Of a DNA stretch of 64,000 nt, positions 39,600 through 60,783 are shown piece by piece. Position 1 is the stretch's first letter. Every line of letters starts with the position of its first letter. The notes beneath the pieces are model-generated. The model was given only the letters and a program-made list of their open reading frames with translations, was not told the origin of the DNA and did no database searches. A program made the translations under genes and the position numbers. Where the stretch lies: positions 62,001 to 126,000 of the forward strand of contig NIVC01000671.1 in NCBI GenBank assembly GCA_002269645.1, written 5' to 3'. This DNA comes from Macrostomum lignano (Eukaryota).

Positions 39600-42500
39600 C
39601 ACATAGGTTGTCCCAGTTGATCGTATTTCAGTCTGTCAGGCGGTTGTCTATGGCGTTTGGGATACTGGTTATTGGTGACTGGCCGCGATGCTGCCATCGA
39701 CTCAGTCTCACTGGTCTCCTTGGCATCTTGCAGTTCAGTAGCCGGCTGCGCTATTTGATGATGTGTCTCGCCGGTTTCTGGGATCCTGGGTTTCGTCTGT
39801 CCAATGTGCTTTCTTAACACTTTTCCATCTTCTTCGACGTTGACAATGACTTTTCCTTCAGATCCGATAATCACGCCAGGGGCCCATTCTTGCTGTGATC
39901 GTTGTAGACTCTGGCCCACACAGGTTGTCTCGCTAGTTGAATGATCGGGCAGCGCAGTAGATGTCCTCTCATGAGTTCAGCTGGCGCTTGACCTGTTGTG
40001 GAGTGCTTTGCGTTTCGATACTGCAGCAAAAACCTGTCGATACTGGCTTGCATGTCGCTCGAATCTTGTGCTGCACGAAGATGGTTTTTAAGGTCCCGAA
40101 CGAATCTCTCGGCGATCCCATTTGAGCGAGGATGATATGGAGGTGTCAGGAGATGTTTGCAACCGATCCCTCGGAGCCAGCTTTCCATCTCCTTTGAGAC
40201 TAGCTGGGGTCCGTTATCCGAAACGAGGACAGGTGGCACACCCTCTTGTGCGAAAGTGCGCCGGAGTTGACGGATTGTGTCCTCCGTAGTGATTGAGTTC
40301 ATCAGGTGGACTTCGGCCCACTTGCTGTAGGCGTCGATCATGATGAGACAGAACTTCCCATTCTTGAAGGGGCCGGCAAAGTCTATGTGAACCCGGCTCC
40401 ACTTCTCTGTCTCCTGAGGCCAGGAGGTCCACCCGCCTACTGAATAATCCTTTTGCGTCTGACAGTTTTTACACGTCTTTGCCTGGAGTTCGATTTCCTT
40501 ATCGATTGAAGGCCACCACACACACTGTCGGGCGATAGATTTCATCTTATCAGCACCCAGGTGTCCATAATTGTGCAGGGTCCTCAGTACGTAGCTCCGT
40601 AGCGTATCTGGTACCACAATTCGAAGTCCTCTGAACAGGATTCCGCTCTCGATAGACAGTTCCTCTTGTATCCTGGAATACTCCCGTACCATAGCTCTAC
40701 CAATTCTAGTCCATCCATACTTCACCTGTGCGAAAACTTTCCGCATCAGTGGATCTTTCAGAGACTCCTGTCAAACCTTTTCTTTGTCAATTGGGAAATC
40801 CAAAATGGTGTCTTGAACAGAACTCACGTCAAATTGTTCTGATTCAGTGTGCGTTGACTTCAGCCTTGATAGAGCGTCGGCGACCGGGATCTCTTCCGAG
40901 CGGCGGCACTCGACTTTATAGTTGTACTGCATGAGAGCAATAGCCCATCGCTGAATCCGGGTTGAAGCCAAACTGGTGATGCTTTTTGACGGATCGAATA
41001 TGAATTTCAACGGATGATGGTCTGTCACCAGTGTGAACTTGCGTCCGTACAGGTATTTGTGGAGGCGCTTAACGGCCCAGATGATAGCTAAGGCCTCCCG
41101 TAGTTTCTCTCAGTCTTGCTCAGAGTTTTTGAGATGAAGAGTACAGGTCCATTAGATTGCTCAAGCACAGCCCCGATTCCATATGGGGATGCGTCGGTGG
41201 TAAGCCTGGTCACCGGGTCACAAGGGTCGAACGGCTTTATTACTTTCGATTTAAGGATATTATTCTTGATTTTGTTCAAGGCAGATTGCTCTTGCACGTC
41301 CCAATGCCACTTCTCGTCCTGTCGGATTAACTTTGCCAACGGTTCCTTTATGGTAGCGAGGCTCTGGATGAACCTGCAGTAGAACTCGGAAGTCCCAGGA
41401 AAGATCGAAGTTCCTTTGGAGACGTTGGTTCTTTTAGTCCTCTAATGACGTCCATCTTGTCAATGGCTGGGCATATTCCCTCTTCGGTGATATCCAAACC
41501 CGGGAATTTCACTCGCTTACTCTTGATAAAACTTTTCTGGTAGTTGACCTCTACGTTGTTCTCTTTCAGGATGCTTTTTACAGTCTCCAGCTGGTCGTCG
41601 TGCTCGCGCTCTTTTCGGCCAAAAATCAGGATGTCGTCCTGGTAGCTAACGGCATTTTTCTGCGACGCTAGCAACTTGTCCATATAGTTTTGGAATATGG
41701 CCGGTGCCTGTTTGACCCCCTAAGACAACGACTGGGGCTTGTGAGTCCAAATGGCGTGCTCAGTGTTAGAACACTCGCCGATGCCTTGTCCACAGGAAGC
41801 TGCAGATAAGCATTCGTTAGATCCAGGACAGAAAAGGTCTTGGCTCCTCCAAGTTGGCTCAACACGTTCTCGATGCTCGGTGTAGTGGAGATCATGTCGC
41901 ACAACGATCTGTTAACCGTAACTTTATAATCACCACACAGCCTGATCTTACCATTCTGCTTTCTGACAACGACGATAGGTGTAGCCCAGTCACTCTGATT
42001 CACCTTCCGCAGGACTCCATCATTCACGAGCTTATCCAGTTCTTCCTTCACACTGTCTCGAAGACCGTACGGTCTGGGCTTGAGGAACACGGGTATTGTT
42101 CCCTCCCTCAAAGTTAGATGAGCTTGGTTTTGCTTCACCCGATAGATTTTCAGACCAGGTTTCAAAAAAGCATGCATCCACTGCAGTCCATAGATGTTGG
42201 GAGCATCTGACTTGTCCACAATATATACTGGTAGTTTCTTAGAGTTGCCATCGTATTTCACAGTGACCATTGCCTCGCCTAGAATTGGAACAGCATGACC
42301 TTGGAACTCATTGGGTCTCTTGTTCGTCGGCAATACTTCGGGGATGACTGACAGGCACTCGAATGTTAGTTTTCGATATGAGAGAGACATCCGCTCCCGT
42401 GTCGAACACCATATCAACTGTAGTTCCGTTTATGCAGACTTCACGGGCGATCCTTTGCCGGGATGATAGCGAAAAAATCTGACCGTGCTGTTCTCCATCC

Positions 42501-42600
42501 TCTGCTTCACCATCGAGTAAAGGATCTTGCTGCAGGAGTCGAACTCTTGATGTTGCTCGGCGTCCACTTGTTTGGGACTTTGCGGCTTTACACACCGCTT
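39600..42600 (-). CDS. pol: Pol (protease, RT, RNase H, integrase) broken by several frameshifts
   Basis: FDTGADVS (protease); WATPIVVVRKQNGKIRLCGDYK and YQDDILIFG (RT); LTTDASPYGIGAVL (RNase H); RVHIDFAGPF, VSDNGPQL and HPRSNGIAERFVR (integrase). Confidence 0.88.
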
Positions 42601-43323
42601 TCAGATGACCTGCTTTGCCACAGCTGTCGCATGTGAGCGCTTTGTGTCGACACTCAGTTTTGGTGTGTCCAGGTTTTCCGCAGCAGAAGCATGTGCCTTA
42701 CCCTGGTTTCGTTCGGCCGGCGCCTTTGCGTAGCGCTTCCACGACTCTCTCGTGTGCTGAGGTCGGCTGCTTTTTTGTCGCATGTGCAGAACATTTGAGC
42801 CGCTCATGTCCATCTCTCCTCTTTGGACAGCCTCGCACGCTGCGGCGACAGCAGTGACATTCTCCCAGGTGAGATCCTTTAACTTCTCGGAGAGTAGTTT
42901 TCTTAGGATTTCCTTGCTCTTTAGGCCGAATATGAACTGGTCACGGAGTCGGTCCGAGTTATCGGCGAACTCGCAGTCCTCTGCTAGCTGCTTTAGCCTG
43001 CGACTGTAGGTCAGGATGTCTTCGCTGCTTTCTTGCTTCGCCTTGTGAAACTCGTATCTGCAGGCGATTACTGATTTCTCGCCTTTCACTTCTTTTTTAA
43101 TTAGCAGCACCAAATCATCAAATGATTTTGTTTCCACTGTAGCAGGTAGTGTTGCATCTGCAAGAAGGTTGAACATCCTCTTGCCGATTAGAGCCAGGAA
43201 GGCGTCTCGTTTATTGTCGTCCTTCCAGCCGTTAAGTTTGGCACTGATCTCGAAGCGCTGGATCGATCTATTTGGGTCCTCGCCGTCTTCCAGTGGTTCG
43301 ATGGTTGGTAGCCTCGTCGCCAT
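42601..43323 (-). CDS. gag: Gag protein of the Mag-like element
   Basis: MATRLPTIEP...RYEFHKAKQESSEDILTYSRRLKQLAEDCEF...RLRDQFIFGL; a CCHC knuckle follows in a shifted frame. Confidence 0.85.
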   Translation of the reverse strand: MATRLPTIEPLEDGEDPNRSIQRFEISAKLNGWKDDNKRDAFLALIGKRMFNLLADATLPATVETKSFDDLVLLIKKEVKGEKSVIACRYEFHKAKQESSEDILTYSRRLKQLAEDCEFADNSDRLRDQFIFGLKSKEILRKLLSEKLKDLTWENVTAVAAACEAVQRGEMDMSGSNVLHMRQKSSRPQHTRESWKRYAKAPAERNQGKAHASAAENLDTPKLSVDTKRSHATAVAKQVI

Positions 43324-44791: not shown

Positions 44792-44946
44792 AGTAGTAGA
44801 GGATAACACAACTCTGCCGCAGGGAAAGCCACGGAAATTCCGTGGGCCCGGATCAGAAGGGCGCCTATGTGTTTGCATAGCTCAACTCTGCCGCAGGCAA
44901 AGCCATGGGAATTCCTTAGACTCCTAATGAGAGTACATAGGCACCT
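44792..44946 (+). repeat. Left TIR of the Polinton
   Basis: Reverse complement of 60629-60783; contains an internal duplication CAACTCTGCCGCAGG(G/C)AAAGCCA near 44810 and 44883. Confidence 0.97.
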
Positions 44947-45087
44947 GTGTCCCATAGGGGTAATGTGAATACATAGCCGCATGTGTTTACATAGGAGATA
45001 TTTGTATATAAACCAGAAAATTTGTTTTCACAAATAATAAAAAAATTTGAAATTCTCGCTCCGTTACATCGTAATAACTAATTAATA

Positions 45088-45831
45088 ATGGTCGATATTG
45101 GAGAAGGCTACAAACTTCAAGTACAAGAGTATGAAGGAGTACAGTTTATTGCGATTCGGAAATTTTATCGACATGGCAGCACAGCAAGTTTAAAACCCGG
45201 CGTTCCCGGATTTAACCTCAACATCCGACAATGGGAGAAGTTGAAAGAACTGAAGCGAACTCTCGTGAAGGCGGCCCTAGGCGGGCAACAGAGGATCATC
45301 AAACTCGGTTTTGATAAGTTTGTTGAGGTTAAGAACGGCATCATCTGGCTAAGACGGCTTCCAGAAGATTGCTGCGAAGAATTTTTGAAGCGAAACACTG
45401 TGGCCTTGGCACCAGCTCTGTGGCGAAAACTGTGGGAGCAGGCTGCATGGATCGACGAGCAGCTGTCTGCCCCACGCCAAATTTCTGATGTGTATGAGCT
45501 GGAGTCGGGATCTTCGAGCGAGAGAAACGGTGATGATGATGACAACAGCAACAAGGACGACACCATGCGGCTTGCGAAGACTGAGGATGAGGGCGTCCAA
45601 TCAAGCACTCTACGCATCGACGATGAAGTGGTCACATCAACGCCTCTACCGGTGACAAGTGCTGCAGCTGGCTTTATCCCAAAGCAGGATTCGGATTTGC
45701 TGCAGGACCCAGTCTGGTATCGCTTCCGGGCTGAAGCAGCTGCGGTCGAGAACATCAGGAAGCGCAAGCAACCATATCCGCTGCGCAGGCAGAATGCCAT
45801 GAGACTGCGCCTCAATGAGGATGAGGAGTGA
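45088..45831 (+). CDS. Tandem PC4/SUB1-like ssDNA-binding protein with acidic tail
   Basis: Repeat 1 VQEYEGVQFIAIRKFY...LKPGVPGFNLNIRQWEKLKE and repeat 2 IKLGFDKFVEV...VALAPALWRKLWEQAAWIDEQL both follow the PC4 pattern (...[25 protein letters not shown]). Confidence 0.75.
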   Translation: MVDIGEGYKLQVQEYEGVQFIAIRKFYRHGSTASLKPGVPGFNLNIRQWEKLKELKRTLVKAALGGQQRIIKLGFDKFVEVKNGIIWLRRLPEDCCEEFLKRNTVALAPALWRKLWEQAAWIDEQLSAPRQISDVYELESGSSSERNGDDDDNSNKDDTMRLAKTEDEGVQSSTLRIDDEVVTSTPLPVTSAAAGFIPKQDSDLLQDPVWYRFRAEAAAVENIRKRKQPYPLRRQNAMRLRLNEDEE

Positions 45832-46277
45832 AGAAGAAGAATAAGAAGTGCTTTGAAGAACTTTGGTGACTGGTGACATACTTAAATTGGCTCATTTAAC
45901 AATTTCTATAATTAACATTGCTCATTTATCCAGAAAACTTAATTAAGTCTCTCCATTTAAGAAAATCATGCAACTTATTGTTTCTTATCCGCTAAAAAAT
46001 ATAAAAGCTTCTTTTCATAAAAAAATTGTTTTCCTTTGTTCTTGTGCTTAAGAAAAAATTAGACTGTTGACTTTTGTTTCTTGAGAAAATGGAAAAAATT
46101 TACTTTGCTCCTGGCCAACCAGCTAGTGTTTCAATTTGCTCAAAGCTGCTGCATCAAGTTGGAGAAGAGGGTGGGCATAAAAATTGAAAGAGCATTGAAC
46201 AGTGGCTCAATGAGCAAACCGCGAAAAGAACTTAAAAAAAATTGTTTTGCAGGCTTTCATTCAGCTTGATTTTGATA

Positions 46278-47348
46278 ATGGAAAAGATCTACTACAACCC
46301 TGCTCAGCCTGCCAGTTTCTCGGGTGTCTCAAAGCTTCTGCACGAGCTCAAGAAAACACAGGATAATCGTGAATCTAAAAAGAGCATCGGACAATGGCTG
46401 ACTGAGCAGCCTGTGTACACACTGCACAAGCAAGCTAGGAGACGCTATCCTATGGCACCAATCATTGTTAGGGCTATTGATGATCAGTGGGAACTTGACC
46501 TGGTTGAGATGATACCATTTGCAAAATACAATAACGGCTACAAGTATATTCTCACATGTATAGATGTCCTCTCTAAATCTGGTTGGGCCAGGCCTCTAAA
46601 AAACAAATCAGCTGCGGAAGTCAAGTTCGCATTCGAGAGTATCCTGAGGTGCTCAAAGCGCCAGCCACGCACAGTCCGCACGGATCAAGGAAAAGAGTTC
46701 ATCAATACAAATTTTCGGGAGCTCTGTATAAGCAAGGGAATTTTGGCATTCCCCACTAATAGTGAGCAAAAAGCAGCCATCATAGAGAGGTGGAATAGAA
46801 CTTTGAAAAACAAAATGTGGCGATATTTCACCCACAAGAGCACTTTGCATTGGGTTGATGTGTTGCCAAAGCTGGTCAAGTCGTACAACAACACTTACCA
46901 CAGAAGCATCAAAATGGCACCGACTAGCGTATGCAAAGAGAATGAGACTGAGGTCTGGATGAACCTTTACAATGGAAGAGCCATTGAGACTGTAAATAAG
47001 CCAAAGAAGCCCAAATTCAGTGAAAAGCAGTCAGTGAGAATTTCCAATGCACCCAGGCTATTCCACAAAGGATACAAGGCCAACTGGAGTGAGGAGGTGT
47101 ACACTGTAGTATGTAGGGCACCGAAGCACTATCCGTACATGTACAAGATTAGGGACATAAAGGGTGAGGAGATCCGGGGTCTCTTTCATGAGCATGAGCT
47201 GCAGGCGGTGCCGGACTCACAGCGACTGTATGTGATTGAGAAGATTCTGAAAACGGAGAAGCGGAAGGGAAAAATTCGCTATCTGGTGAAGTGGGCCGGC
47301 TACGACTCGACAGGCTGGGTGGATGAAAAAGACTTAAGAAAGGTTTAG
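46278..47348 (+). CDS. Retroviral-like integrase with C-terminal chromodomain
   Basis: YYNPAQPASFSG, WELDLVEM, LTCIDVLSK, VRTDQGKEF, AAIIERWNRTLK; chromodomain YVIEKIL...YLVKWAGY...WV. ORF intact. Confidence 0.96.
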   Translation: MEKIYYNPAQPASFSGVSKLLHELKKTQDNRESKKSIGQWLTEQPVYTLHKQARRRYPMAPIIVRAIDDQWELDLVEMIPFAKYNNGYKYILTCIDVLSKSGWARPLKNKSAAEVKFAFESILRCSKRQPRTVRTDQGKEFINTNFRELCISKGILAFPTNSEQKAAIIERWNRTLKNKMWRYFTHKSTLHWVDVLPKLVKSYNNTYHRSIKMAPTSVCKENETEVWMNLYNGRAIETVNKPKKPKFSEKQSVRISNAPRLFHKGYKANWSEEVYTVVCRAPKHYPYMYKIRDIKGEEIRGLFHEHELQAVPDSQRLYVIEKILKTEKRKGKIRYLVKWAGYDSTGWVDEKDLRKV

Positions 47349-47385
47349 CTTTTGCGCATCTCTTCTCATGAGGTTTAACATTATA

Positions 47386-48194
47386 ATGCGAACTATTTTG
47401 ATTAACAGTGAGCATGCTGAAGGTACTCCTAGTGACTTTAATTTTTACCTGTCTTCACCTATTTACTTGGATCGAAATGTGGACTATGAGGCAGGTCTGG
47501 CTGAAATCCATCTGCCTGCTGCATGGTTCAATGTTGACGAGCCTTACTGCTTCACTGTCTCAGATGGAAGAGAGCATGAGGCCCTGGTTCTTCAACCCGG
47601 ACGCTTTGCTAGAGTGGAGGAGCTGGTGGAGCGTTTGAATCAGCTGCTGGCCAACTCTGATTCGCTATTCTTTGATGCAATGAGTGACAGGGAGTCTGAG
47701 ATGGAGGCTGATGAGTCCGGCCTGATGGGGCGTAGTGGCAACAGGGAATTCGGTATGAAGTTCGAAATCCGCAACTCACGAACTGTGGTGCACAACAACA
47801 CTGCGAGAGCAGAGATGTTTCTCCATCCAGCAAAATTCTGCATTGGCTGGGATTTGGAAACCAGGCTGTGAAAATCCAGCCAGGGAGCCGCGTGTCCGAG
47901 CACTGCATTGGCTGCCCGCGCACCAGCTTAATCAATGTGCACTGCAGTATCGTTGAGTCAACTAATTGCAACTTGGGCTCCCTGTTGAGAACAGTTGGAA
48001 TGAAAGCCGGCATTGAATGGGGCAACTATCAAACAAAAATATTTAAGAAAACAATATTCTTCCCGATTCAACGAATCAGTCTTCTTCACAGCATTCGAGT
48101 TCAGCTGCGTGACATCTATGGTTGCCCACTGATTGCCCAGACACTCAGCCCTGTTCTGCTCACAGTTCAGATTCGGGAGAAACGCATACAATGA
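47386..48194 (+). CDS. Minor capsid protein (penton, single jelly roll); one frameshift near 47829
   Basis: TPSDFNFYLSSPIYL...YEAGLAEIHLPAAWFNV and C-terminal INVHCSIVES...LLRTV...IRVQLRDIYG. One added base restores LHWLGF. Confidence 0.85.
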
Positions 48195-48579
48195 ACTACC
48201 AGCAGCTGATCCAGCAATATTCGGGGTGAGGACAGGACACGAAAAGCCTGCACTCTATGGCTGTGGGAGCTTTCCGGGGATCATGACATACCAGCCTCCG
48301 CCAGCGGCTACATCATCATTCTCAACGCATAGCAATGTCAGGCGCAAAAGAAATACTGAAGCAAGTCCGAAACGATTGAAGAAGAAGAAGTACACCCGAA
48401 AGGCAACTGGTAGAGATCGCACCAATAAGAGGTGCAATGAAAGAAATCCGAGCAAGGCTAGTAGGAAAAAGCTTAAGAATAGGAAGACGAAAGCAAAGAA
48501 GAATGCAGCAGGCGGAGGAAAGCGAAAGCGAAAAGTCAGCAAGAAAACTGTGAAACGCGTGCTCGACTCTCTGTCATAG
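48191..48579 (+). CDS. Small Lys/Arg-rich core-like protein; one frameshift near 48225
   Basis: ATG overlaps the penton stop (ATGA). Reconstructed MNYQQLIQQYSGVRTGHEKPALYGCGS... followed by a very basic tail; lies between the two capsid genes. Confidence 0.6.
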
Positions 48580-48581
48580 AC

Positions 48582-49865
48582 ATGGCTTACGGATTCAATC
48601 CCAGACTTGATTTATTTAAGACGCCTGTTCTACAAACCTGCATTGAAAAAGCTACTTATGTTGATATTCACCCAGTAAATTCCATTACTGCAAACTCCCC
48701 CATTGAATTTGACTGCCACCAATCTGCCGATGAATACACTGATTTGCTTAATTCTTTTCTTTATATTCGCTGCCGCCTTGTGAGACTGGATGGGGGTTTG
48801 CTGAGGGAGGATGTTCGAGATGGAGATGGCATCATCACCGAGCGCAGAGACAGTGACGTGCACCCAGAAAACTTTGTTTTGTCTACAGCCTTCTCAGATG
48901 TAATTGTGAGCATTAACCAGCGAGTGGTATCTGGTGGAGACCAGCTCTATCCCTACCATGCGTACTTCAAAGCACTAATGAGCTCATCTGATGCCCAGCA
49001 ACTAAAACTTTACCCTGCTGGCTTCCTGGAGCCGAACTCGGCAGCTGAAAAGCACACGGAGAGCCACAGGGAATCCCGATGGATGGAGTATGCGGGACCG
49101 CTCTTCAGCGATGTTTTCCAATGCCCAGTGTTTCTGCTAAACAATCTGCACTTGCACATCAAACTGGTGCCCAGCGATGGGGCCTTTGCCATCAGAAGCC
49201 CGAATGCAAACAACGCGGCATACCGCATGGAAATCTCTCACTGCATTTTGCATCTTCGCCGAGTCAAAGTGGTGCCCCACATCAGCCTGGCCCACGAGCA
49301 GGGGTTGACAAACCAAAATGCACTGTATCCCATCGAGCGAACTGAAATGCAGAACTTCATCCTACCCCAGGGCATTCAATCTAAAAACATTGAAGGATTC
49401 ACTCATGGAAAATTGCCGAAGTTCATCATGCTGGCCTTCGTGAGCCACCGTGCATTCAACGGTCATCATCACGCGAGCCCGTTCCAGTTCCAGAGCTTCA
49501 ACCTTAGCCAGTTGGCTCTAAAGAAAGGTGGGGAAACCGTGTGTCACGGTGCCTTCACACCTGAAAACAATTCCTTTGTAAGAGAATACTTACACTACCT
49601 GAAAAGCTGTCAATCTGCAAGCCACACGAACTCGGTTCCGTGGATCCCTTACCAGCTCTTCTCCAACAACAGCACGGTGTTTGCATTCGATCTCACACCA
49701 GAGGGAGCGGCTCTGTGGTACGGACAGAAGGAGGGCAACCTGCGGTTGGAGATTCGCTTCCGACAGGCTCTGGACGAAACGGTGTCCCTGATCGCTCTGT
49801 GCCTGTATGACTCGCTGATTGAGGTCACCAAGCACCGGGAGCTTTTGCTGGACTATTCCTCTTAA
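48582..49865 (+). CDS. Major capsid protein (double jelly roll, PY)
   Basis: LDLFKTPVLQTCIE...PIEFD...EYTDLLNSFLYIR, LPKFIMLAFV...FNG...PFQFQSFN, FAFDLTP, GNLRLEIRFRQAL. Intact 427 aa. Confidence 0.95.
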   Translation: MAYGFNPRLDLFKTPVLQTCIEKATYVDIHPVNSITANSPIEFDCHQSADEYTDLLNSFLYIRCRLVRLDGGLLREDVRDGDGIITERRDSDVHPENFVLSTAFSDVIVSINQRVVSGGDQLYPYHAYFKALMSSSDAQQLKLYPAGFLEPNSAAEKHTESHRESRWMEYAGPLFSDVFQCPVFLLNNLHLHIKLVPSDGAFAIRSPNANNAAYRMEISHCILHLRRVKVVPHISLAHEQGLTNQNALYPIERTEMQNFILPQGIQSKNIEGFTHGKLPKFIMLAFVSHRAFNGHHHASPFQFQSFNLSQLALKKGGETVCHGAFTPENNSFVREYLHYLKSCQSASHTNSVPWIPYQLFSNNSTVFAFDLTPEGAALWYGQKEGNLRLEIRFRQALDETVSLIALCLYDSLIEVTKHRELLLDYSS

Positions 49866-49870
49866 CTGGC

Positions 49871-50379
49871 ATGGAAGCAATTCAACTACTCCATCTCGCC
49901 AGAAAATTTTTGTCTTGCCGAAAATTCTTCATCATTACTTTACATTCACGCTATAAAAATGTATTGTCTTTGAGTCTAAAAAGAAAATATCGATCAATTC
50001 CCTTTGAAAACAAGTTTGTGTTTATCCTACTACAGCACAATGGCTCATTTGGTCATTGGGTGGTGTGCTATGCTGGGCAAGGAAATTGCATTGAGCTGTT
50101 CAACTCCCTCGGCTGGGAACCTGAAATTTTATCTGTGGTTTATAATTTGTTTCGAGAGATTAAAACAACTGGCTTTTATCTCCGAAGCAATATAAACAGA
50201 TTTCAATGTGCTAACTCTAATAAATGCGGAGTGTTTTGCATCTATTTTGCTTATCAAAAGTTGCTGATCAATCGTCATTTGAGGGTATTTTAAAGAGTTT
50301 GCACTCTAATGAAAAAAATCATTTGAATGATAGAATCTTACAGAGGTTTGAAGCCAACTTAAGAAAAAGATGTCCGTGA
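49871..50379 (+). CDS. Adenain-like cysteine protease; probable frameshift near 50280
   Basis: GHWVV...IELFNSLG...FQCANSNKCGVFCIYF; the shifted frame continues EGILKSL...LNDRILQRF to a stop at 50379. Confidence 0.88.
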
Positions 50380-50408
50380 TTTTCTAGAACTATATTTATG
50401 CATTAGAC

Positions 50409-51055
50409 ATGGGAGAAAAGCGAGTTTGCTACGATATCCGCCTCAGGCAGGGAAGCTGCATGATTGTCTGCGGGCCCACCAATGCAGGAAAAACAACCTT
50501 TGTCAAACACCTGATCCAGTACAGAGACGTCATGTTTGATGTGAAGCCTGGCAGAGTTCTGTGGTACTATGGGATCTCACAGGCAGGCCATGCAGAACTG
50601 AGCAGCCTAGGTGTGCAGCTGCGCCAGGGATTCCCCACCAACATCGAGGCAGCACTTAGGCCCAATGACCTGGTTGTTTTCGATGACTTAATAGAGGAAA
50701 CTTCAAATTCTGCTTCAATGCGAAATTTTTTCACAGGAATCGCACATCACTTGCCGTGCTTTTTGGTGATGCTGACTCAGAATATATTTTTCAAGGGAAA
50801 AGAGTCGCGAACAATGAGCTTGAATGTAATGTACTTAGCTATCTTGAAAAACCCCCGAGACCAGCTGCAGATTGCAGCACTGGCAGGCAGTGCTTTACAG
50901 AGAAGCCCGGCTTTCTGCTGTCAGTGTTCAAGCACGTGACCGCGCAGAACAGGGGAGCCTACCTGTTCCTAGACTTTCACCCATCAACTCCCGATGAGCT
51001 GCGAGTGCGGGCCAGAATTTTGCCCAACCAGCGACCCCATCTTGTATTTGCTTAA
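50409..51055 (+). CDS. A32/FtsK-like genome-packaging ATPase; one frameshift near 50883
   Basis: Walker A GPTNAGKTT, Walker B LVVFDDL, IAHH...LTQNIF, SLNVMY...KNPRD, then YLFLDFHP...LRVR. Confidence 0.93.
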
Positions 51056-51107
51056 GAAAGTGAAGCTTGTTTTTTATCGCTATTGTTTTCATCGCTATGG
51101 AAGTGCT

Positions 51108-51434
51108 TGATTCACATGCAAGTCTTTTTGCGGTTCTTGCGTCACCTAAATATACCGTGCGCTTCAAGCAGCTGTTGATAAAAAATTGTCCAAAGAAGTG
51201 CGTTATTTTCTTGTTGAGGCCTGTCATAATCTCTTACAAAACAATTTATCGTTTTCGATCGATGAAAAAGCTGTTCTTGCAAAGTCAAAAGAGATAATTC
51301 GAAAAATTACTCAGCAGAGAAGAAAGATAGACTTGTTAAAGGCTGGCTTCATCAAAATACTCCCGATTCTGCTTAAGCTGGTCAAGAAAAAGAAGCAAAA
51401 TGAACAAATTTTCAGAAATGGTTCTGATTTCTAA
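51108..51434 (+). CDS. Conserved small Polinton protein; one frameshift near 51188
   Basis: Reconstructed LLIKNCSKEVRYFLVEACHNLLQNNLSF...LAKSKEIIRKI matches the E-C-x-N-x-L pattern recalled from Maverick proteins. Confidence 0.65.
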
Positions 51435-52052
51435 AGCAGAGTATGAGATGTTAGTGCAGAATTTGAAGCCAAATGAGACTAGCACTGACGCTGACTTGAA
51501 GCAGGCTCAGAAGAAATGCGATGATATCTTGTATGCCGAGGATTATCCAGAAGATGTGAAAACCGCCATGTATCAAAGTGCAATGCAAAGTTTGCTGGCC
51601 AAGCGCAAGCACGCTGGAAAAGAAGGATCACGAAATACTGAAGCCAAGTTGATGAAAATAGAGACACCCAGATGAACACCTGGGAAGAGAAGATCAGCAA
51701 GTCGGTGCCACAGAAATTCAAAAACCAGGGCTCGCAGTCTATGGACGATCCTGTCCACCAATCCAGAGCTGATTGGAGTTTGTGAAAACGGAGAGGTGGA
51801 AATCGCAGGCACGTCAATCCCTTCCTCAAACATACTGGACTTGATTCAGCACGCAGTGAGGGATTCGTCATGTGAGCGTGAACAGTTGGGTGGAACGAGT
51901 TCATCGATTTGCTGCAGCAGAAAAAGCTTAATGTTCCGCTTTCCGCTATTGGTAAATCAGTTAAGAAGAAAATGGCAACCAGCAGAGGGGGTGAACTGGA
52001 GAAAGAACAGGAGAGTCTAGTCAAGGGTACGGGAGCAACACAGCCTGGCTGA
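51400..52052 (+). CDS. Conserved Polinton protein (PZ-like); about three frameshifts
   Basis: MVLISKAEY, then GEVEIAGTSIPSSNILDLI and (E)PVGWNEFIDLL...NVPLSAIG, as recalled from Mavericks. Confidence 0.7.
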
Positions 52053-52118
52053 AACTGCCTGGCAGAAAAGTATATAAGAAGGTGGACTGACTCCGAAATT
52101 TCGAGGGAAAGCTGCATC

Positions 52119-52600
52119 ATGAACTACATTGACTTCCAAGGATTCCCGTGCAACAGCACAAGCAAAAACTTTGTTGTGAAGGAGTTGGCAGTTGTTCAAG
52201 TCAGAGCGGGAAGCTACCGAATTGCTCACCATGTGTACGCACCTCCGTATCCATGGGAGAGAGTCTCACCTGACATGCGAGTTTGCTACAGACAGCTATC
52301 AAAGAGTCTGCACCAGTTTAAGTGGAATGATGGAACCCGTCCGTACATGGAACTGGCGGAAGACATTCTGAGGATTGCCAGTGGTCCGATCTGGACAAAT
52401 GGGGAAAGGAAGTCTATTTTCCTGACTGAGCTGCTTGGTAGACAGGTTTATAACCTAGAAGATTTGGGAGCACCCTCGACTGAAGATTCAGATACTGGCT
52501 GTGCAGTGAGAAATTCGTTGCTGCACTACAGTTGGCTTAAGCCAAAGTTCTGCATCAACTTAAGAAGCGAGCAGTGTCCGTGGCACACGAGCAGTAAAGT
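52119..52600 (+). CDS. DnaQ/DEDD-like exonuclease-fold protein; reading frame stays open to 52817
   Basis: IDFQGF...FVVKELA...PPYPW...KWNDG...NGERK...YNLEDLGAP...CAVRN...W pattern recalled from invertebrate Mavericks. Confidence 0.6.
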
Positions 52601-52638
52601 TGGCAGAAGCAGATTTGGTGAAGAAGTTGACGATCGAA

Positions 52639-53227
52639 ATGAGCCCACCAGCTACAGCCCTAAGAGTGAGCAATCTGGTTGGCGGAGTAGATCTGAGGCT
52701 GGATGGTGGCAGGGGCGCTCAGCTACCTCTACGGGAACTGGCTCTCAGCATGGCTCATGTGATCTACCGGCCCGTCTGGCCCCGGTGCTCATCAAGCGGA
52801 TGCGAAGTCCAGAGTGACTCTGCTACTCTACCCTACTGGGCAACTGAGCATCTGCGGTGCCAAGACCCACGCAGACGCCAAAAGGGCTGCCCGTCGCTTC
52901 GTGGCTATGCTGCATCGGAGAGTGCCAGCTCAACTGCTGCCTCCTCAAGCCATTTGTGTTCGGATTAAAACTATTACTGCTCATGGTAAATTTAACTTCT
53001 GCAATGCTTTGTCCCTCACAAATCTTGCTGCCTCTGGCATACTGTCTTACGCTGAGTATGAGCCCGAGTCGTTCTCTGCTCTAATTTATACATTACGTTA
53101 TTGTAAATGCTTGTTATTTCATACTGGTTCTTTTGTTCTTAGTGGAGCAAAATCTATGAGCATGTTGCGCTTCGACCTTTCTACGTTACATAGTTTAATC
53201 AGCCAGTTTATCACCTATCAAAAATAA
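52639..53227 (+). CDS. TATA-binding protein (TBP)-like factor; two 1-bp frameshifts near 52771 and 52812
   Basis: Both TBP core repeats: VSNLVGGVDL...LPLRELAL...IYRP.RLAPVLIKRMRSPRVTLLLYPTGQLSICGAK...AKRAARRF and ...YEPESFSALIY...CLLFHTGSFVLSGAKS. About 196 aa after correction. Confidence 0.88.
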
Positions 53228-53957
53228 ACAAAAAGTGTGTTCCGTTTGTTCTTGAATGTTTGCGTAAATTCATTACGGAAAACCGCATCTTTAAATTATT
53301 TATTTTTATTTTTAAAAAATAAGTTTTAACTAAAAAATTAAAGGTGAAATGAGCATAGAATAATTGAAAACTGGGAGCTAAAACGCGTAATCAGATCTCT
53401 CCCCTCACAAAAACAGAAAAAGGGCATAGAACCCATTCCAAAAAGGTTCTGCCAAAAGCGAAATTGCTTAGATTGATACACGTGAATGAAGAAATTAATT
53501 AATCAAACTCGACTGACACTCATACATGTAACTGGACCGCAAAATTACAAGATAGAGCAAGAAATTTCAACAAAAGCAATGCAAAGAAATGTTTTAGCAT
53601 CATGTTAAAAAATTAATAAATGAACATAAAACTCAGCAATAAAAATTTCAATACATTAAATTTACTGACTTTGCAATTTAATATTACGAGTAGAAATCGT
53701 GCAGTTACAAGGTACTGAAATAAAATTACTAATAAATTAATAGCTAGCATTAAGACTTCAGACAAAAAGTTCAAAAAGACACTAAAATTACGGTGAAACA
53801 GGGGAGGCAAATTGCTGCAACTTCTTCTATCTGAGATAGCAAAATTGAGACAGCATATAATTTAAACGGATAAAGGCGAGTATATGTTTGAAGAAACCAA
53901 AGACTAAATATTCAGAATAAAATGTGTAGAGGCCGTGTGATAAAAAGTTATACTCAG

Positions 53958-56900
53958 TCACTTATTAAATTCGTAGTCTTCTTCCCGTCGCCGCTTTCGG
54001 GAGGCTGTAGCATTCACGTGCTGTTGCAGCTGCGACGACTCCGGATGAAGAAGTTGAAAATGGCCAAACGGGAGACTGTAGTTCGGTGCCAGCCAAGCGC
54101 GCTTGTCCTCCCAAATGCTTAAGGCACACTTTCGCTGCTGCAGCGTGAATAGCCTGTGTTGGATGCTAGCGATCCTGTGGATGATGACGGACATGCTACT
54201 CAGATCATTGAAGACTCTCAAGTAATCACTATGCGCAATCTCCTTCTTGACAACACATCCTTGAATGCCTTTGGCTTTTTTCTTTTCAGCAGTTGCAGTG
54301 CTAGCGAGAAAGGAATACAGCTTTGGTCTCAAAAGCAACCACTCGAGATAGCGAGCTCCAGCTCCTTCGTCCTTGATGCAACCGAGGCGAGCTTTCAATT
54401 CATTTGAGAACAGCGGGTGCTCAGGTGAATAGTTGGAAGTGTCAAGGAGTTTCTTTGCTTTTAGCAGTGGAAGAACTTCCGACTGCACATCCATATTCTG
54501 AATGCAAAGAAAGAGCGAGTCGGTGTCTCCACCACAGAGCCGAACACGGGCACCCTCTTGCTCAAGCCAAGGCTTCAATTTGTCGTAGAATAACTCGTAC
54601 ATGATTAGCTTCGAATAGTCAAGAACACACTGGCCAATAAAAATCGGACGATCAAGCTTGACCTTAGTCTTCTGGAATTCAATTATGCTCAGTGAGTCGG
54701 TAATTATGATAAAGTTCTTAATGGATGGTTTTGAAGCCAGCACCTTTGCTTTTGCAGTGTTGGTGCAAATCCGAATGTCACGTCGCTTACGCACGTTTTC
54801 CATTGTTTTTCCGAAGAGCGCATTGTTTTTTAGTTTGTAGTAGTCTTTCTCGAAGCTGTTTGTCGCAGCAGCTCTTTTCACGCTGTTCATGTTAACATAG
54901 TCAGCAAATATCGGCTCCTGTTTGTACTCAATCATTCGATTAATTCGTTTGATTTTCATTCCATGGCTCAAGTAGAATGCCAAGATAGCCGAATGAAGCA
55001 CATAACTCTGCTTGTCATGGCAGGTGAGCAGAAGTTTTTCTGCCGAACGATAGGCTGCTTTGTCTCCAGTAATCTGCCTCCAAAGCTGTTGCATGTAGGC
55101 AGGAAATTCTTTGAATTTTGGTGCTTCTTTTTCTGGTGCAAAAGGCAAATCTTCAGTGGTGGAATGTATCTCTGCTGGATATAGAAGATCGACATCGAGC
55201 AGATAAGCAATTGGATCTGAGATTTTGAGCCCTCGGATACGATCCTCGGTCCACAGCTGTAGCTCATCTTCGGAAAGCCAGCGAAATCCATTTGCAGGTA
55301 AGTTCATGGTAAGAGCTTGACCGTAAAGGTTGTTAGCATCTACTGCTAGAAGCTCGGTAGGAACAGCTTGATCAGCGCCCTCGTCGTGACAGTCATCATC
55401 ATCATCATCATTGTCATTGCAGATAGTCTGATTGTCAGCTGCTTCCAAATTTTTTCTAATATCTGGAGAGTTGGCTGACACTCTGTGTATGTTCACAAAT
55501 GACATGCCACCGCGAATACCGCGCTCGAATGTTGCATACATTTGCGAATCCGTAATCAGCTCGATTCTGGATTTGAGAGACTTCAGTGCTGAAGCAAAAG
55601 ATAATCCCGGGGTTGAAACGAAATGCACCGGATCAAGGCCATCATCACGAAGGCTGAGCTTGCGAAAATTTTCAAAGACATCGGCGAGCTGCCGAATGTC
55701 AAGCTCAAGGTAGCATAGCATGTACTCTTTCAGCGTTTTAACTTGGAATTCATGCCATGCTTTCTGTGCATGCCTGTAATCCTCATCACTGCAGTGGCTT
55801 TTAGTCAGAACGTTGTAGAATTGTTCTTTACTTGGCAGCTCGGTATCCTCAAGGACATTTGAATTAGTTAAGTAGTCGTACGGAAAAGTGCATTTTCTGA
55901 ATAAAACTTCTGGAGACAACAGTGGAAACTTACTTTTTAGCAGGCTAGTGATGGTGCACTCTTCTTCTGGCAGGTTCTTGATCAGCTGAGCCAAGCTGGC
56001 GTTGAGAAATTGGTTAGAATCAATGAATTGAATGGTAAAGAACAATGGCTTAGTCTTTCCTCCCCTCTCGTACTCATCGATTTTGAAGTCAACTTTCATT
56101 GAAACAAACTGCTCAGGATTCTGTGGAATAACCGAAATCCTCCATCCATCCATGAGATCCAAAGCCGTTGACATAATGAGATGAAGGTCATAGCCTTTTA
56201 GATTGTGGAAAACCACAGGAAGAAAGCGCCTTTTTAGACGAGCCTGCATGTTGCACTGAGCACAGGCTGCACCTCGGAATTCGCCACTGAGGTGATCATG
56301 ATCCCAGTGCTTTCCGCTTTCACTATCAAAGCCGCTTCCGCAGTAGTGACACGATATAGCATCGCGGAAGCGTTGCTTTGCAGCCTCCGTTCTAATAGCC
56401 GTCTGATGACTGAACTCCGTGTTCCAGCCATAAACCTCTCGAGCTAGCTGTTCAAGGGACTGCAAGAAGTCAGAAACACACTTTTTCGGATTTTCACTCA
56501 CAAATATGTTAACATCATTGTCGACTCCTATAGGTGATAACCCTGTGAGGCCTGCTCGGTGCACCACCAAGTAACCAGCAGCAACGGCAACATGCTCTGT
56601 CAGCTTTACAGTGCTCGAACCAGCTTCAGTCTGCTGCCCTGTGTGAGGTGCATTCAATGCCTCGAAGTCGGCGTACACAATGAATGGTGGGCTGATTGTC
56701 TTTTCCCACGCCGTAAACCGAAGTACATTGTGATCTTCATCCGGAAGTTCTTCCTGAACAAAAATCCCACCAGGCTCACAGACATCTTCACAGTGCTCAT
56801 CGAACGCCTTGCTAGTGTGAAATGACAGCAGACATCGCTCACACCACTTTCGCTGGTACAGGTGGGCTTTACTGTTCAACAATCTGTTGATGTTCGAGAC

Positions 56901-58300
56901 AGCACACCAATGACCACCAGCTGAGTTCTCGTTCGTGGATGGTGGAGAAACATCAGCAGGACAACTGTTCGTCCTCTCATGGTAGCTGCGCTTGGCTGTC
57001 GGAGGACTTCAGCAGCTTCATTCTCCCAGGTGAAAACAGTGAAGCAAAGGGTTGGATTTAATTCCTCGACAGCAGACAGATCGTACAAATTGATCGGCAG
57101 ACTCAGTCCCGTAATGTTAATCTCATCTAGCCATTCGGTGTACGAGGATTCTCGTTGAGCTGACTTCTTAATACGGCAGTGATCTTTGTGAAGAAAGGCA
57201 AGGCACGCGTAAACAAAGCAATTTTCACCGCTGCTAGGAGGAGAAATGACGGCCTTCTTTTGAAAAAGCGCAGTCGGCAAACTAAACCCAGCCGCATGCC
57301 CCGAATAGTAGGGAGTTCGAACAGCGAGGGCAGAGCAAAGGTCGAAGAAATTTATTTTGTCAATGGCCCATCCACTGCCATTAGCGTTGTACACGTCTAC
57401 TCTCTGCTCTAACTCTGCAAATTGCTGCCTCCACCAGTCATCAAATTCCTGCACATCAACCAGCATACAAAGATTTGTACTCATCCATTTGTTTTCAACA
57501 TTGACTGCTTCTGCTGCCTGCACCCGAATCATGCGCACGTTTAGCTTAATTTGTGCTCTTAGCGAACAGTTGTCAAAGGAGTCAAGACGAACTTCGAGAT
57601 ACTGCAGAACCGCATGTTTGACCAGGTCTAGAAACTCGAATGGATCAATGTCAGCTGTTGGGGCGAAGCGATGAATCTGCAGTACATCATCGTGGGCACT
57701 GTTCACCAAGGAGATAACACATGAAGACCCTAAAAATAAAATCGAGAGATAAGATAGTGAAAATCGAGAAACATAAACTGAGAGTCTCATGATTGCTTAT
57801 AAATCCAGCTCAATTAGCTATTCATAATAATCGATGTCTGTATTCAGAATCGAGGAGGGTGTTTTTGGATGTATACAATCGATATAGGTGTGCAGAGGTG
57901 TGCGAAGTCGAGGTGGGGTGTCCAGAGTCGAGGTGTGGTGTCCAGAGTCGAGGTGGGGTGTCCGGAGTCGAAGAAGGGATGTGCAGAGTCGAGGAGGGGG
58001 TGTGCGGAGTCGAGGAGGGGTGTGCGGAGTCGAGGAGGGGGTGTGAAGAGTCGAGGAGGGGGTGTGCAGAGTCGAGGACGGGGATGTGCAGAGTCAGGGT
58101 TGGTGTACGGACTCGGGGTGGGCGGGTTTATTACGCATTAATTAAAACTGAATTAGTTACACATTTCGAGTTGAAGGTTTAAAATTTTTCCACTTCAAAT
58201 ATTGGTAAGAAAATAATTGATTTTTTACATTAACAGAGTGGCAAAACTCACCTGCTCCTTCACCTGCTCTTCGCCTAGAACATGTTGTAGGATCCTGCAT
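53958..58300 (-). CDS. Protein-primed family B DNA polymerase with endonuclease VII-like insertion; predicted 5' intron; one frameshift near 56930
   Basis: YADFE, FHNLKGYD, DANNLYG, KLKNNALFGK, GDTDS, RPKLY; CHYC...HWDHDHLSGEFRGAACAQCN. N-terminal part is ORF 56876-57790; candidate first exon 58300-58252. Confidence 0.93.
57890..58100 (+). repeat. ~21-bp minisatellite (GTGCAGAGTCGAGGAGGGGT-like) inside the Polinton
   Basis: About 10 degenerate copies within the predicted pPolB intron. Confidence 0.9.
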
Positions 58301-59071
58301 GTTGCGACTGCCGGCTGCCAGGCAATGCTGATGCAGATTTGTCTGCTTCCAGCTTCGAATTGATCAATTTTAAGGCCAATGGCAATGCTTAGCTTAAAAA
58401 GGAATAATTAAGAAAAATGCAAAGTAGAGATCGAATCTAGTTAAGATGCTCTTATTCTATTCGCGATATTGAGACTTAGCAACGAGCACCAAGCTATAGA
58501 AAAGCAGCCCGCGGATAGTAAAAACCTCAAAATCAAAACTAATAGTCGAGTAATGCGAATAGGTTGCCATGATGCGATAGCTTTTAGCATCAAATCCACC
58601 GATACGAGTTGATTTGCTATTTTACTGTCTAGTTTGCGTTTTTTTAAAAATAATTCAATGTTTATTATGAGAAAAAAACAATGCAAAAACAACGTGTATT
58701 TGGTATAAACGGCTTTGTAGCAAGAAAATAATTTAGAAGAAGAAACTTTTATTTAGCATTAAATTACAAACTTTCTGCATAGAAAGCAGTATAATTCATT
58801 ATAAGCTACCATGTACATTCTTGCTCTCCTAATAACTAAATATTGGTATCAAAGAGCCTCCAGCTTGATAAACTGCTTAGCCCAGCCCAACGAGATAAAT
58901 CACAGGTAACATGCACTGAAAAGATTAATTTAATTTAAGCAGTTTTTAACTTCTTTTAGAGCTCCTCCCCTTATCAAAAGTCCACTCATTTTTGTAGAAC
59001 TTTTTTTGCGTGCTAAAAATTCGTTTCCCTTGCCAACAAAATACTCCAGGCTAAAGCAAATTAAGAGTTAC

Positions 59072-60088
59072 TCAAGCGAATACGGATCCCCCCTCCAAAG
59101 TCAATTGAGTACTCGCCCACAACGCTACTCGGTAGGACGAATTGAAGGCAAACTGACGGTGCAGCCATCGGTTCAGCGGCTTGGACTCCTGCTGATTGTT
59201 GAACCACCGGTGGGTAGCATGAGGTTCGACTCCTGCTGATTGTTGAACCACCGGTGGGGTAGCATGAGGTTCGACTCCTGCTGATTGTGGAAACTCTGGT
59301 ACCACCGGTGGGGTAGCATGAGGTTCGAAATCTCGTAGGAGATCAGACAGGCTGGCATCCGCCATCATTCCAGCCATATTTTTTCCAGCGACTGGAACAG
59401 CCCTGTGCGGTGGCTGCTGCTCGACCGTGGCTTTTTCGTTCGTCTCCTCCGGCTCCAACTCGTGCTCCTCAAAGAAAGCCGTGTCCAATTCTGGCGGAGC
59501 AACAAAATCAGCGGCAGCAGCATCATCGTCATGGCGATTTACCGGTGTCTGAAGACTGAGAGCACCAGCCGCTGGAACGTCAACGCTGGCAGCTTGATGG
59601 TCGATGCCAGCAGGTCCAGGAGCAGCAGCTGGATGGTCGACGCTGGCAGGTCCAGGAAGGCTGGCAACATCAGCTGGATGCTGATCTGCAGCAGCAAGTG
59701 CAACGGAAATCAAATCAAAAGTACATGTAGTTGAAATTATTGCAGATTGATTTCGCACACCTTGAATCGTCTGGCTCAGGGTGCTGACCGGGGCTCGATG
59801 ACGCTCGATCATGTTGAGTTGCTCCTGGCGGTGGGCGGCCTCCAGTACAGTAAAGCGGGCTCGTTCGATGCTATCAGGCGAGCTCCAATTAATGATGGTG
59901 TGATTTTTATGGGCCCGAACTTGGCGGCGCACATTGAACAGCTCAGTTGTCTGGCACTCGTGGCAAAGCAACCAGCGACTTATAATGCAGCTGTCTTTTT
60001 TGTTATGGAGCTTTAACCCACCGAGCTCACATGAATTGCAGCTGATGCACACCTCGTGCACGTAGGATGGACACCGAGATTTATTCAT
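59072..60088 (-). CDS. Unknown terminal ORF: Cys/His-rich N-terminus with LxCxE, acidic Ala/Pro-rich tail
   Basis: 338-codon ORF; HEVCISCNSC...WLLCHEC; ~39-nt internal repeat x3 at 59205-59330; TATATAA at 60165-60171 upstream. Confidence 0.7.
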   Translation of the reverse strand: MNKSRCPSYVHEVCISCNSCELGGLKLHNKKDSCIISRWLLCHECQTTELFNVRRQVRAHKNHTIINWSSPDSIERARFTVLEAAHRQEQLNMIERHRAPVSTLSQTIQGVRNQSAIISTTCTFDLISVALAAADQHPADVASLPGPASVDHPAAAPGPAGIDHQAASVDVPAAGALSLQTPVNRHDDDAAAADFVAPPELDTAFFEEHELEPEETNEKATVEQQPPHRAVPVAGKNMAGMMADASLSDLLRDFEPHATPPVVPEFPQSAGVEPHATPPVVQQSAGVEPHATHRWFNNQQESKPLNRWLHRQFAFNSSYRVALWASTQLTLEGGSVFA

Positions 60089-60628
60089 TATTTAAAAATC
60101 TATGAGAAATTTAGTTTAAAATAAAATTTAAATTTAAACTTCTCATATGCACATATTTAGCCTCTTATATACCCACTTCAACCAAATCTGTGTTAATAAA
60201 AACATAGCCGCTATGTTTTCAGCTTTGCTATGTTTACAGTCAGCCACCCAATGTCCAATGATTTCATCAGCGCATCCAGGTATTGAGCCCTTGTTAAATT
60301 CCCGCACGCCCCGCTAAATTCTTTTGAATACGCCGCCAACTTTACCCCACCCAGTCGAGGGTGGCAATAAAACTACTGATAACTGAGCACTCTCTCCTTT
60401 CAGCAACAAAGCCGCCGCCGCCGCCAGCTCCCAGACAGCGGGAGAGAGAGAGGCTTGGCTACCACTATTTTTGTTTACAGAAGTTTGTTATTACCGATAA
60501 AATTATATAATAAAGTATTAGTATAATACTGAATACAATAAAATACCGCTGATATTTGCCAATCGTTCAACACAATTTCTAGAGATTCCCCTAGCTCGCC
60601 TCTGTGCATACTTGCGGATTCCCCCATG

Positions 60629-60783
60629 AGGTGCCTATGTACTCTCATTAGGAGTCTACGGAATTCCCATGGCTTTGCCTGCGGCAGAGTTGAGCTATGC
60701 AAACACATAGGCGCCCTTCTGATCCGGGCCCACGGAATTTCCGTGGCTTTCCCTGCGGCAGAGTTGTGTTATCCTCTACTACT
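60629..60783 (-). repeat. Right TIR of the Polinton
   Basis: 154/155 identical to the left TIR; ends ...CTACTACT. Confidence 0.97.

What the first reader, a model, noticed from the sequence alone, without database searches (positions are those of the whole stretch)
52639..53227. A Polinton that encodes its own divergent TATA-binding protein
Seen: both TBP core repeats align along their length with canonical TBP (QNIVSTVNL...[36 protein letters not shown]...AARKYA / YEPELFPGLIY...LLIFVSGKVVLTGAK). Of the four DNA-intercalating Phe, the second-repeat pair is kept (ESFSAL, LLFHTG) and the first-repeat pair is replaced (RL, LLY). The first Asn is kept (SNLV) and the second is lost. The gene is intronless and inside the TIRs. 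Known: TBP homologues occur in large nucleocytoplasmic DNA viruses that carry their own RNA polymerase, and host TRF2/TBPL1 lost Phe residues and TATA binding. I do not recall TBP among described Polinton genes. Inference: an element with no RNA polymerase that redirects host polymerase through a private TBP, possibly with its tandem PC4, to drive late capsid promoters, or that uses it as a decoy. This is the best candidate for an undescribed system in the window.
Basis: partly seen in the sequence, partly recalled or inferred. Interest (0 to 1): 0.92.

Follow-up and report, generated by a model that had tools for sequence, protein, structure and literature searches.

The report
Polinton's own re-tuned TATA-binding protein
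A virus-like transposon of a flatworm carries its own conserved, altered TATA-binding protein, and many of its genes sit behind a matching non-standard TATA-like box, which suggests it redirects the host's polymerase to its own promoters as some herpesviruses do.

Summary
The TBP gene is real, but the window copy is broken by two frame shifts that look like assembly errors; 25 of 29 sibling loci read open. It is not a decaying retrocopy. It occupies a fixed slot in over 100 copies of one Polinton family and at least 24 of a second family (33% identical), with dN/dS 0.16-0.40 between subfamilies and a TBP fold (TM about 0.8). Nine diverse members keep the TFIIB-binding Glu-Pro-Glu stirrup but share fixed, mostly polar changes on the DNA-binding face. 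A TAAGA(A) box lies 35-110 nt before 6 of 10 genes here, 6 of 9 in a sister subfamily and 5 of 8 in the second family. Best reading (0.55): an element-specific initiation factor that recruits host TFIIB and Pol II, working like herpesvirus ORF24/BcRF1 without belonging to that family. Binding, timing and expression are untested. A 2021 figure legend already lists a TBP in a related element, and this scan noted Polinton TBPs in two other genomes, one with a promoter box; that note prompted my motif search.

The parts
52639..53227 (+). TBP-fold gene (two repeats, no N-terminal tail). The window copy shifts frame near 52785 and 52810; siblings read 187-196 aa
52559..52566 (+). CTTAAGAA box 80 nt before the TBP start, inside the upstream ORF; kept in all family-A lineages seen
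52119..52968 (+). Upstream nuclease-like ORF (Maelstrom look-alike at 0.88, a lead only). In open siblings its frame runs about 110 codons into TBP repeat 1; end here is approximate because the window copy is broken
52071..52080 (+). TATATAAGAA: canonical TATA overlapping the TAAGAA box, before the nuclease-like ORF
53223..53228 (+). AATAAA, possible poly(A) signal overlapping the TBP stop
   Evidence: consensus match only
44792..44946 (+). left terminal inverted repeat, begins AGTAGT
60629..60783 (-). right terminal inverted repeat
45005..45012 (+). canonical TATA box before the PC4-like gene
   Evidence: also present in the sister subfamily
45088..45831 (+). PC4-like gene (one Pfam PC4 domain; a second copy not confirmed)
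46278..47348 (+). retroviral-type integrase with chromodomain
47333..47340 (+). CTTAAGAA box 35 nt before ORF 47368, inside the integrase coding end
47368..48194 (+). conserved ORF, broken here; possibly minor capsid (not tested)
48191..48579 (+). small basic, core-like ORF, broken here
48472..48479 (+). CTTAAGAA box 110 nt before the capsid gene; a related box lies at -104 and -107 in the other two lineages
48582..49865 (+). major capsid protein, double jelly-roll type (Atlas score 0.98 to a cluster with PF21738 on 24% of members; no Pfam hit)
49871..50293 (+). adenovirus-like cysteine protease (below Pfam cut-off, E 0.003); no box upstream
50358..50365 (+). CTTAAGAA box 51 nt before the ATPase
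50409..51056 (+). packaging ATPase (Walker A visible; broken here)
51051..51058 (+). CTTAAGAA box 46 nt before ORF 51097; it includes the ATPase stop codon
53958..57790 (-). [quoted passage not shown]
   Evidence: polymerase motifs seen; sibling loci match PF03175
59072..60088 (-). unknown ORF with a canonical TATA box about 83 nt upstream (60171)

Best explanation
The gene encodes an element-specific transcription initiation factor. SHOWN: a minimal two-repeat TBP under purifying selection in two Polinton families, with the acidic stirrup intact and a DNA-binding face fixed in new, more polar states; and a TAAGA(A) box 35-110 nt before most integration, packaging and capsid genes. INFERRED: host TBP first drives the genes near the termini that have canonical TATA boxes (PC4-like, ORF 59072, the nuclease-like ORF). 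The element's TBP then binds the variant box (YTAAGAA in family A, YATAAGA in family B), which host TBP should bind poorly. It recruits host TFIIB through the stirrup, and so Pol II, raising output of the virion and integration genes. In family A the box before the TBP gene would give positive feedback; in family B the TBP gene has a canonical TATAAAA and could be early.
For: Open in 25 of 29 sibling loci. 75 of 98 listed capsid places have a TBP downstream on the same strand (both lists capped). The second family has 24 stop-free places at 81-100% identity to each other and the same gene order. dN/dS is 0.16-0.40 in 17 of 17 informative pairs. Model pLDDT 90.5, TM about 0.8 to solved TBPs. 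In 9 of 9 members N69, V71, T112, L114, E186-P187-E188, F190 and F207 are kept (yeast numbers), while T73G, F116Y, V122S/T, T124C, Q158K, N159T, V161T/S, V203K and V208H are fixed. V122, T124, V161 and T215 are also replaced in herpesvirus ORF24 (PMC12529657 Table 1). TAAGA(A) is in the top 6-mer of all three upstream sets: 6 of 10, 6 of 9 and 5 of 8 against backgrounds of 0.06, with 9 sense versus 1 antisense copies in the gene block. Only 2 of 22 Leu-Arg pairs in the element's ORFs are coded TTA-AGA; both are box sites and both are kept in divergent subfamilies.
Against: No binding, start-site or timing data. The box was first chosen on the window, and the three sets are homologous, so they are not fully independent. 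One site includes a stop codon and one lies in lysine-rich coding sequence. The protease, core-like and ORF 51400 genes lack the box in every lineage where they were examined. The box also precedes the TBP gene and integrase, so the early/late split is not clean. Two other Polinton families in the genome had 0 of 10 TAAGA but 6 of 10 TAAG, three as TATAAG[C/T], and their lack of TBP was checked only over 7 kb each, so a TAAG-type box may be general and read by host TBP. The first Phe and the second Asn are lost, which could weaken DNA bending. The overlap with the upstream ORF constrains repeat 1 for other reasons.
Confidence: 0.55

Rival explanations
1. Deregulated general TBP. It has no real change of specificity; it replaces host TBP on weak TATA-like element promoters and escapes host inhibitors (TAF1 TAND, NC2, Mot1) or chromatin silencing.
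For: The boxes are near-TATA, and family B grades into TATAAGA and TATAAAA. TAAG-type boxes also occur in other Polinton families. For EBV BcRF1, in vitro binding does not separate TATA from TATT (PMC4893493 passage).
Against: Nine fixed changes, most at DNA-contact positions, shared across 33% identity. The box differs between families A (YTAAGAA: 5 of 10 and 6 of 9, versus 0 of 8 in B) and B (YATAAGA: 5 of 8, versus 1 of 10 and 0 of 9 in A).
Confidence: 0.17
2. Decoy or host shut-off factor. It binds TFIIB or Brf1 through the stirrup but not DNA productively, damping host (for example defence or piRNA-pathway) transcription.
For: The stirrup is invariant while the first Phe and second Asn are lost. 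It is paired with a Maelstrom-like ORF (lead only). TRF2 lost a Phe and TATA binding (PMC10005294 passage).
Against: The DNA face is not free to drift: new residues are invariant, three of four intercalating aromatics remain, and basic residues were gained. A decoy does not explain the shared box.
Confidence: 0.14
3. DNA-architecture role outside transcription: it bends DNA at the termini or internal sites for protein-primed replication, integration or packaging.
For: The C-terminal half tracks with the polymerase side in mosaic elements. A PC4-like ssDNA-binding gene is present in both families.
Against: The TFIIB stirrup would not be needed. The boxes lie before start codons, not at the termini.
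Confidence: 0.09
4. A captured host TBP or TRF2 retrocopy carried passively and decaying.
For: The window copy is frameshifted. Host TBP is also intronless over its core.
Against: Open in most siblings, dN/dS well below 1, about 28% identity to host TBP, and a separate clade shared by two Polinton families and seven database proteins.
Confidence: 0.02

Closest known systems
Beta/gamma-herpesvirus TBP mimic (KSHV ORF24, EBV BcRF1, HCMV UL87) and its TATT late promoters
   Same: Nuclear DNA virus without its own RNA polymerase; TBP-like protein; non-canonical TATA-like box before structural genes; polar changes at V122, T124, V161 and T215 (PMC12529657 abstract and sections 15-16; PMC4893493 passages; PMC7498053 abstract).
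   Different: ORF24 is a 752-aa multidomain protein in a six-protein complex. It keeps all four Phe and both Asn, lacks the stirrup glutamates and binds the Pol II CTD directly. This protein is a bare 190-aa core that keeps the stirrup, loses Phe99 and Asn159, and has no obvious viral complex.
Cellular TBP (PF00352)
   Same: Fold, two repeats, stirrup, repeat-2 Phe pair.
   Different: About 25-28% identity, no N-terminal tail, fixed changes on the concave face, encoded by a mobile element.
TRF2/TBPL1
   Same: Loss of intercalating Phe (PMC10005294 passage).
   Different: The host's own TRF2-like gene is separate and falls elsewhere in the tree; different Phe positions are kept.
Giant-virus and mirusvirus TBP-like factors
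   Same: Virus-encoded TBP fold (BFVD hits); sporadic TBP genes in mirusvirus-like elements of Cymbomonas (PMC10675990 passage).
   Different: At most 22% identity in the listed hits. Nucleocytoviricota use them with their own polymerase (recalled); this 16-kb element encodes none.
Polintons/Mavericks/adintoviruses (MELD viruses)
   Same: Integrase, protein-primed polymerase, ATPase, protease, capsid, terminal repeats starting AGTAGT. [quoted passage not shown] 5 legend of PMC8502044.
   Different: That legend sits in the section on non-animal datasets; the figure is not held, so the element is unknown to me. The passages read give no function, conservation or promoter box.

Membership tests
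TBP superfamily (PF00352) | Two TBP repeats above the curated cut-off | tested here: met
   90.8 bits against a cut-off of 22.9, 2 stretches
TBP superfamily (PF00352) | Saddle fold | tested here: met
   pLDDT 90.5; TM about 0.8 to solved TBPs
Canonical eukaryotic TBP | Four intercalating Phe and two central Asn | tested here: not met
   F99 absent, F116 is Tyr and N159 is Thr in 9 of 9
Canonical eukaryotic TBP | Acidic C-terminal stirrup for TFIIB | tested here: met
   Glu-Pro-Glu in 9 of 9; sequence only
Canonical eukaryotic TBP | Binds TATAWAWR and supports Pol I, II and III initiation | not testable with these tools
   needs biochemistry
TRF2/TBPL1 | Groups with the TRF2 clade | tested here: not met
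   host TRF2-like row lies elsewhere; quick tree with long branches
Herpesvirus vTBP (ORF24/BcRF1/UL87) | Large protein with a Pol II-binding N-terminal domain and a C-terminal domain | tested here: not met
   187-198 aa core only
Herpesvirus vTBP (ORF24/BcRF1/UL87) | Lacks the TFIIB stirrup glutamates | tested here: not met
   retained
Herpesvirus vTBP (ORF24/BcRF1/UL87) | Non-canonical TATA-like box before structural genes | tested here: met
   TAAGA(A), not TATT; supports 'works like', not membership
Herpesvirus vTBP (ORF24/BcRF1/UL87) | Needed for late, replication-dependent transcription | not testable with these tools
   no expression data obtained
Polinton/Maverick | Integrase, protein-primed polymerase, ATPase, protease and capsid within terminal inverted repeats | tested here: met
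Polinton/Maverick | 6-bp target-site duplication (recalled) | tested here: inconclusive
   flanks agree at 4 of 6 positions

The most novel reading that the evidence does not exclude
Polintons in several animal lineages run their own gene-expression cascade with the smallest possible tool: a bare TBP core whose DNA specificity has shifted with a family-specific promoter box while still docking host TFIIB. This would be an independent, one-protein solution to what herpesviruses do with six proteins, converging on some of the same residues, and a natural altered-specificity TBP.
Probability: 0.4. Interest if true: 0.85.

Novelty: new variant of a known kind. Interest (0 to 1): 0.7.

Why it matters
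How Polintons, which have no RNA polymerase, switch on their capsid and packaging genes is not addressed in the Polinton papers I searched. A dedicated TBP with a defined box makes this testable with one small protein and an 8-bp motif. It would add functional support to the view that these elements are regulated viruses. It also offers natural variants for asking which TBP residues set TATA specificity.

Tried and rejected
Genomic context outside this genome: five viral-contig scans and two metagenome scans found no relative, so the seven database proteins in the clade (P0002-4, P0006, P0044, P0159, P0160) have no known neighbours and are not shown to be Polinton genes. Expression: no RNA holder listed; no reads were laid, so expression and start sites stay open. 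TBP with TFIIB co-fold: no verdict. The CTTAAG before ORF 51400 is not kept in sister subfamilies and is rejected as a box. A second PC4 domain was not confirmed. The careful tree did not finish; the quick tree was used. The control of TBP-less families is incomplete (7 kb each). Literature: nine full-text searches. TBP/TATA terms were absent from the main texts of PMC10748475, PMC8097293 and PMC11071308 (PMC12220804: only an author name) and from held supplements of PMC8502044, PMC10120064, PMC10748475 and PMC8097293. Figures, bioRxiv supplements, Repbase entries and subscription papers were not seen and may hold more.

Full report
Observation. The stretch 52639-53227 encodes both TBP repeats, but the window copy shifts frame twice, near 52785 and 52810. 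Its largest in-frame piece matches PF00352 at E 1e-19. A genome search listed 40 close copies, of which 30 loci were fetched; 25 of the 29 siblings carry an open 190-196-aa frame. Against one sibling the window copy has 0 substitutions and 12 gaps in 4 kb, and other genes of the copy are also split, so assembly error is more likely than decay. All residue statements below rest on natural open siblings.

The element. Terminal inverted repeats bound 44792-60783; the flanks agree at only 4 of 6 positions. On the plus strand lie a PC4-like gene, an integrase with chromodomain, two small ORFs, the capsid, a protease, an ATPase, two more ORFs, a nuclease-like ORF and TBP. The polymerase and an unknown ORF face them. 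The labels PX/PY/PZ/PW in my notebook are working labels, not the literature's names. The host is probably a Macrostomum flatworm: the closest named protein is from M. lignano, and the genome's TFIIB is 99% identical to that species' entry.

Not a retrocopy. A family search scored 150 of 330 candidates and found host TBP and a TRF2-like gene at three loci each; the rest were divergent copies. I compiled 117 family-A places; 75 of 98 listed capsid places have one downstream on the same strand within 12 kb (both lists capped, misses not inspected). The slot is kept while the neighbouring polymerase falls to 53% identity. A second family (TBP 33%, capsid about 40-45% identical) has 24 stop-free places and the same capsid-to-TBP order. 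dN/dS is 0.16-0.40 in 17 of 19 pairs printed; one near-identical pair (0.47) and one saturated pair were set aside (simple counting method, affected by recombination and the gene overlap). In a quick tree of 87 rows (72 of 147 other TBP-like hits used) the two families and seven database proteins form one group (SH-aLRT 97), apart from host TBP and TRF2. The branch is long, but shared derived residues agree with it. The donor is not resolved.

The protein. AlphaFold2 on a 13-row alignment gives pLDDT 90.5, and Foldseek returns solved TBPs at TM about 0.8; viral hits are at most 22% identical. In yeast numbering (contact list from PMC12529657 Table 1), 9 of 9 members keep N69, V71, T112, L114, F190, F207 and the stirrup E186-P187-E188. 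All 9 lose F99 and carry T73G, F116Y, V122S/T, T124C, Q158K, N159T, V161T/S, V203K and V208H. That the stirrup binds TFIIB rests on PMC10005294 (passage) and PMC12529657 (section 16, which writes E184 and E188; E186 is my recalled number). Fixed new states argue for a re-tuned rather than dead DNA-binding face. That smaller polar residues admit a G:C pair in the minor groove is recalled reasoning, not tested.

The box. TATAAAC is not the shared box here. CTTAAG occurs 9 times in the 16-kb element, mostly before start codons, against 6 times in the other 48 kb. In windows 20-130 nt upstream, TAAGAA occurs in 6 of 10 genes here and 6 of 9 in a sister subfamily, and TAAGA in 5 of 8 in family B, against about 0.06 in random windows. 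Family A has YTAAGAA and family B YATAAGA. Distances of 35-110 nt fit a TATA-type position with short leaders (inference). Codon choice at two sites inside coding sequence supports a DNA-level constraint. Canonical TATA boxes precede the PC4-like gene, ORF 59072 and the nuclease-like ORF. Against: three genes lack the box, one site includes a stop codon, one lies in lysine-rich sequence, and the sets are homologous. Two other Polinton families showed 0 of 10 TAAGA but 6 of 10 TAAG, with TBP absence checked only over 7 kb each.

Mechanism. Most likely (0.55) the protein reads the variant box and hands over to host TFIIB and Pol II, boosting virion and integration genes after host TBP has started the terminal genes. 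In family A its own box suggests feedback; in family B its gene has TATAAAA. Rivals are a deregulated general TBP (0.17), a decoy (0.14), a DNA-bending role in replication or packaging (0.09) and passive decay (0.02). Binding, start sites, timing and partners are all inferred.

Comparison and novelty. It works like the herpesvirus TBP mimic with its TATT box (PMC7498053 abstract; PMC4893493 passages; PMC12529657 abstract and two sections) but fails membership on size, domains and the stirrup. It is a TBP-superfamily member and not a canonical TBP or TRF2. PMC8502044 (section 10 read; preprint 10.1101/697771 passages) lists TBP in a figure legend for related elements, with no function given in what I read. 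PMC10675990 (passages) notes sporadic TBP genes in mirusvirus-like elements. PMC10132985 (passages) added nothing on Polintons. Nine searches and the text and supplement look-ups listed under Tried and rejected found no account of a conserved Polinton TBP with a promoter box; figures and closed sources were not seen. This scan noted Polinton TBPs in two other genomes (unchecked AI notes), and a look-up by sequence found no look-alike there. Verdict: real, functional by conservation, a new variant of a known viral strategy; interest 0.7.

Noticed in passing
window 52639-52968; L004, L047, L061, L062, L025, L064, L065, L067, L068, L069, L070: The upstream ORF's frame stays free of stops for 107-111 codons into TBP repeat 1 in 8 of 8 family-A loci and for 90-129 codons in 3 of 3 family-B loci. 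About 3-5 stops were expected (P about 0.01-0.03 per family), while repeat 2 has the expected number. The overprinted tail is Ser/Gly-rich.
   Followed up: partly
window about 52930-53150 and sibling loci: Mosaicism: between some subfamilies the TBP N-half is nearly identical (dS 0.03-0.15) while the C-half is far apart (dS 0.9-1.9) and the polymerase is 53-74% identical. Elements appear to recombine inside the TBP gene, at the junction of the capsid and polymerase modules.
   Followed up: partly
L074 and L071 (family B): Both copies seen keep only part of the integrase and little polymerase but keep capsid or ATPase genes, TBP and PC4-like genes nearby; possibly a non-autonomous derivative in over 20 copies.
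   Followed up: partly
L077, L078; G000 pPolB matches: At least two further Polinton families (capsid 28-29% identical) with a different gene order; some upstream regions carry TATAAG[C/T].
   Followed up: partly
window 57869-58141: Short tandem array (AGTCGAGG-rich units) just upstream of the polymerase gene.
   Followed up: no
window 2151-4361 and 38136-43323: hAT transposase pieces and a Gypsy-type retrotransposon (gag, RT, integrase) outside the element.
   Followed up: no
L031-L042: Host TBP and a TRF2-like gene each appear at three near-identical loci, with intronless cores.
   Followed up: no
P0011, P0016, P0022, P0029, P0066: Short, core-only divergent TBPs from metagenome or Logan contigs that fall outside this clade; they may belong to other mobile elements.
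   Followed up: no
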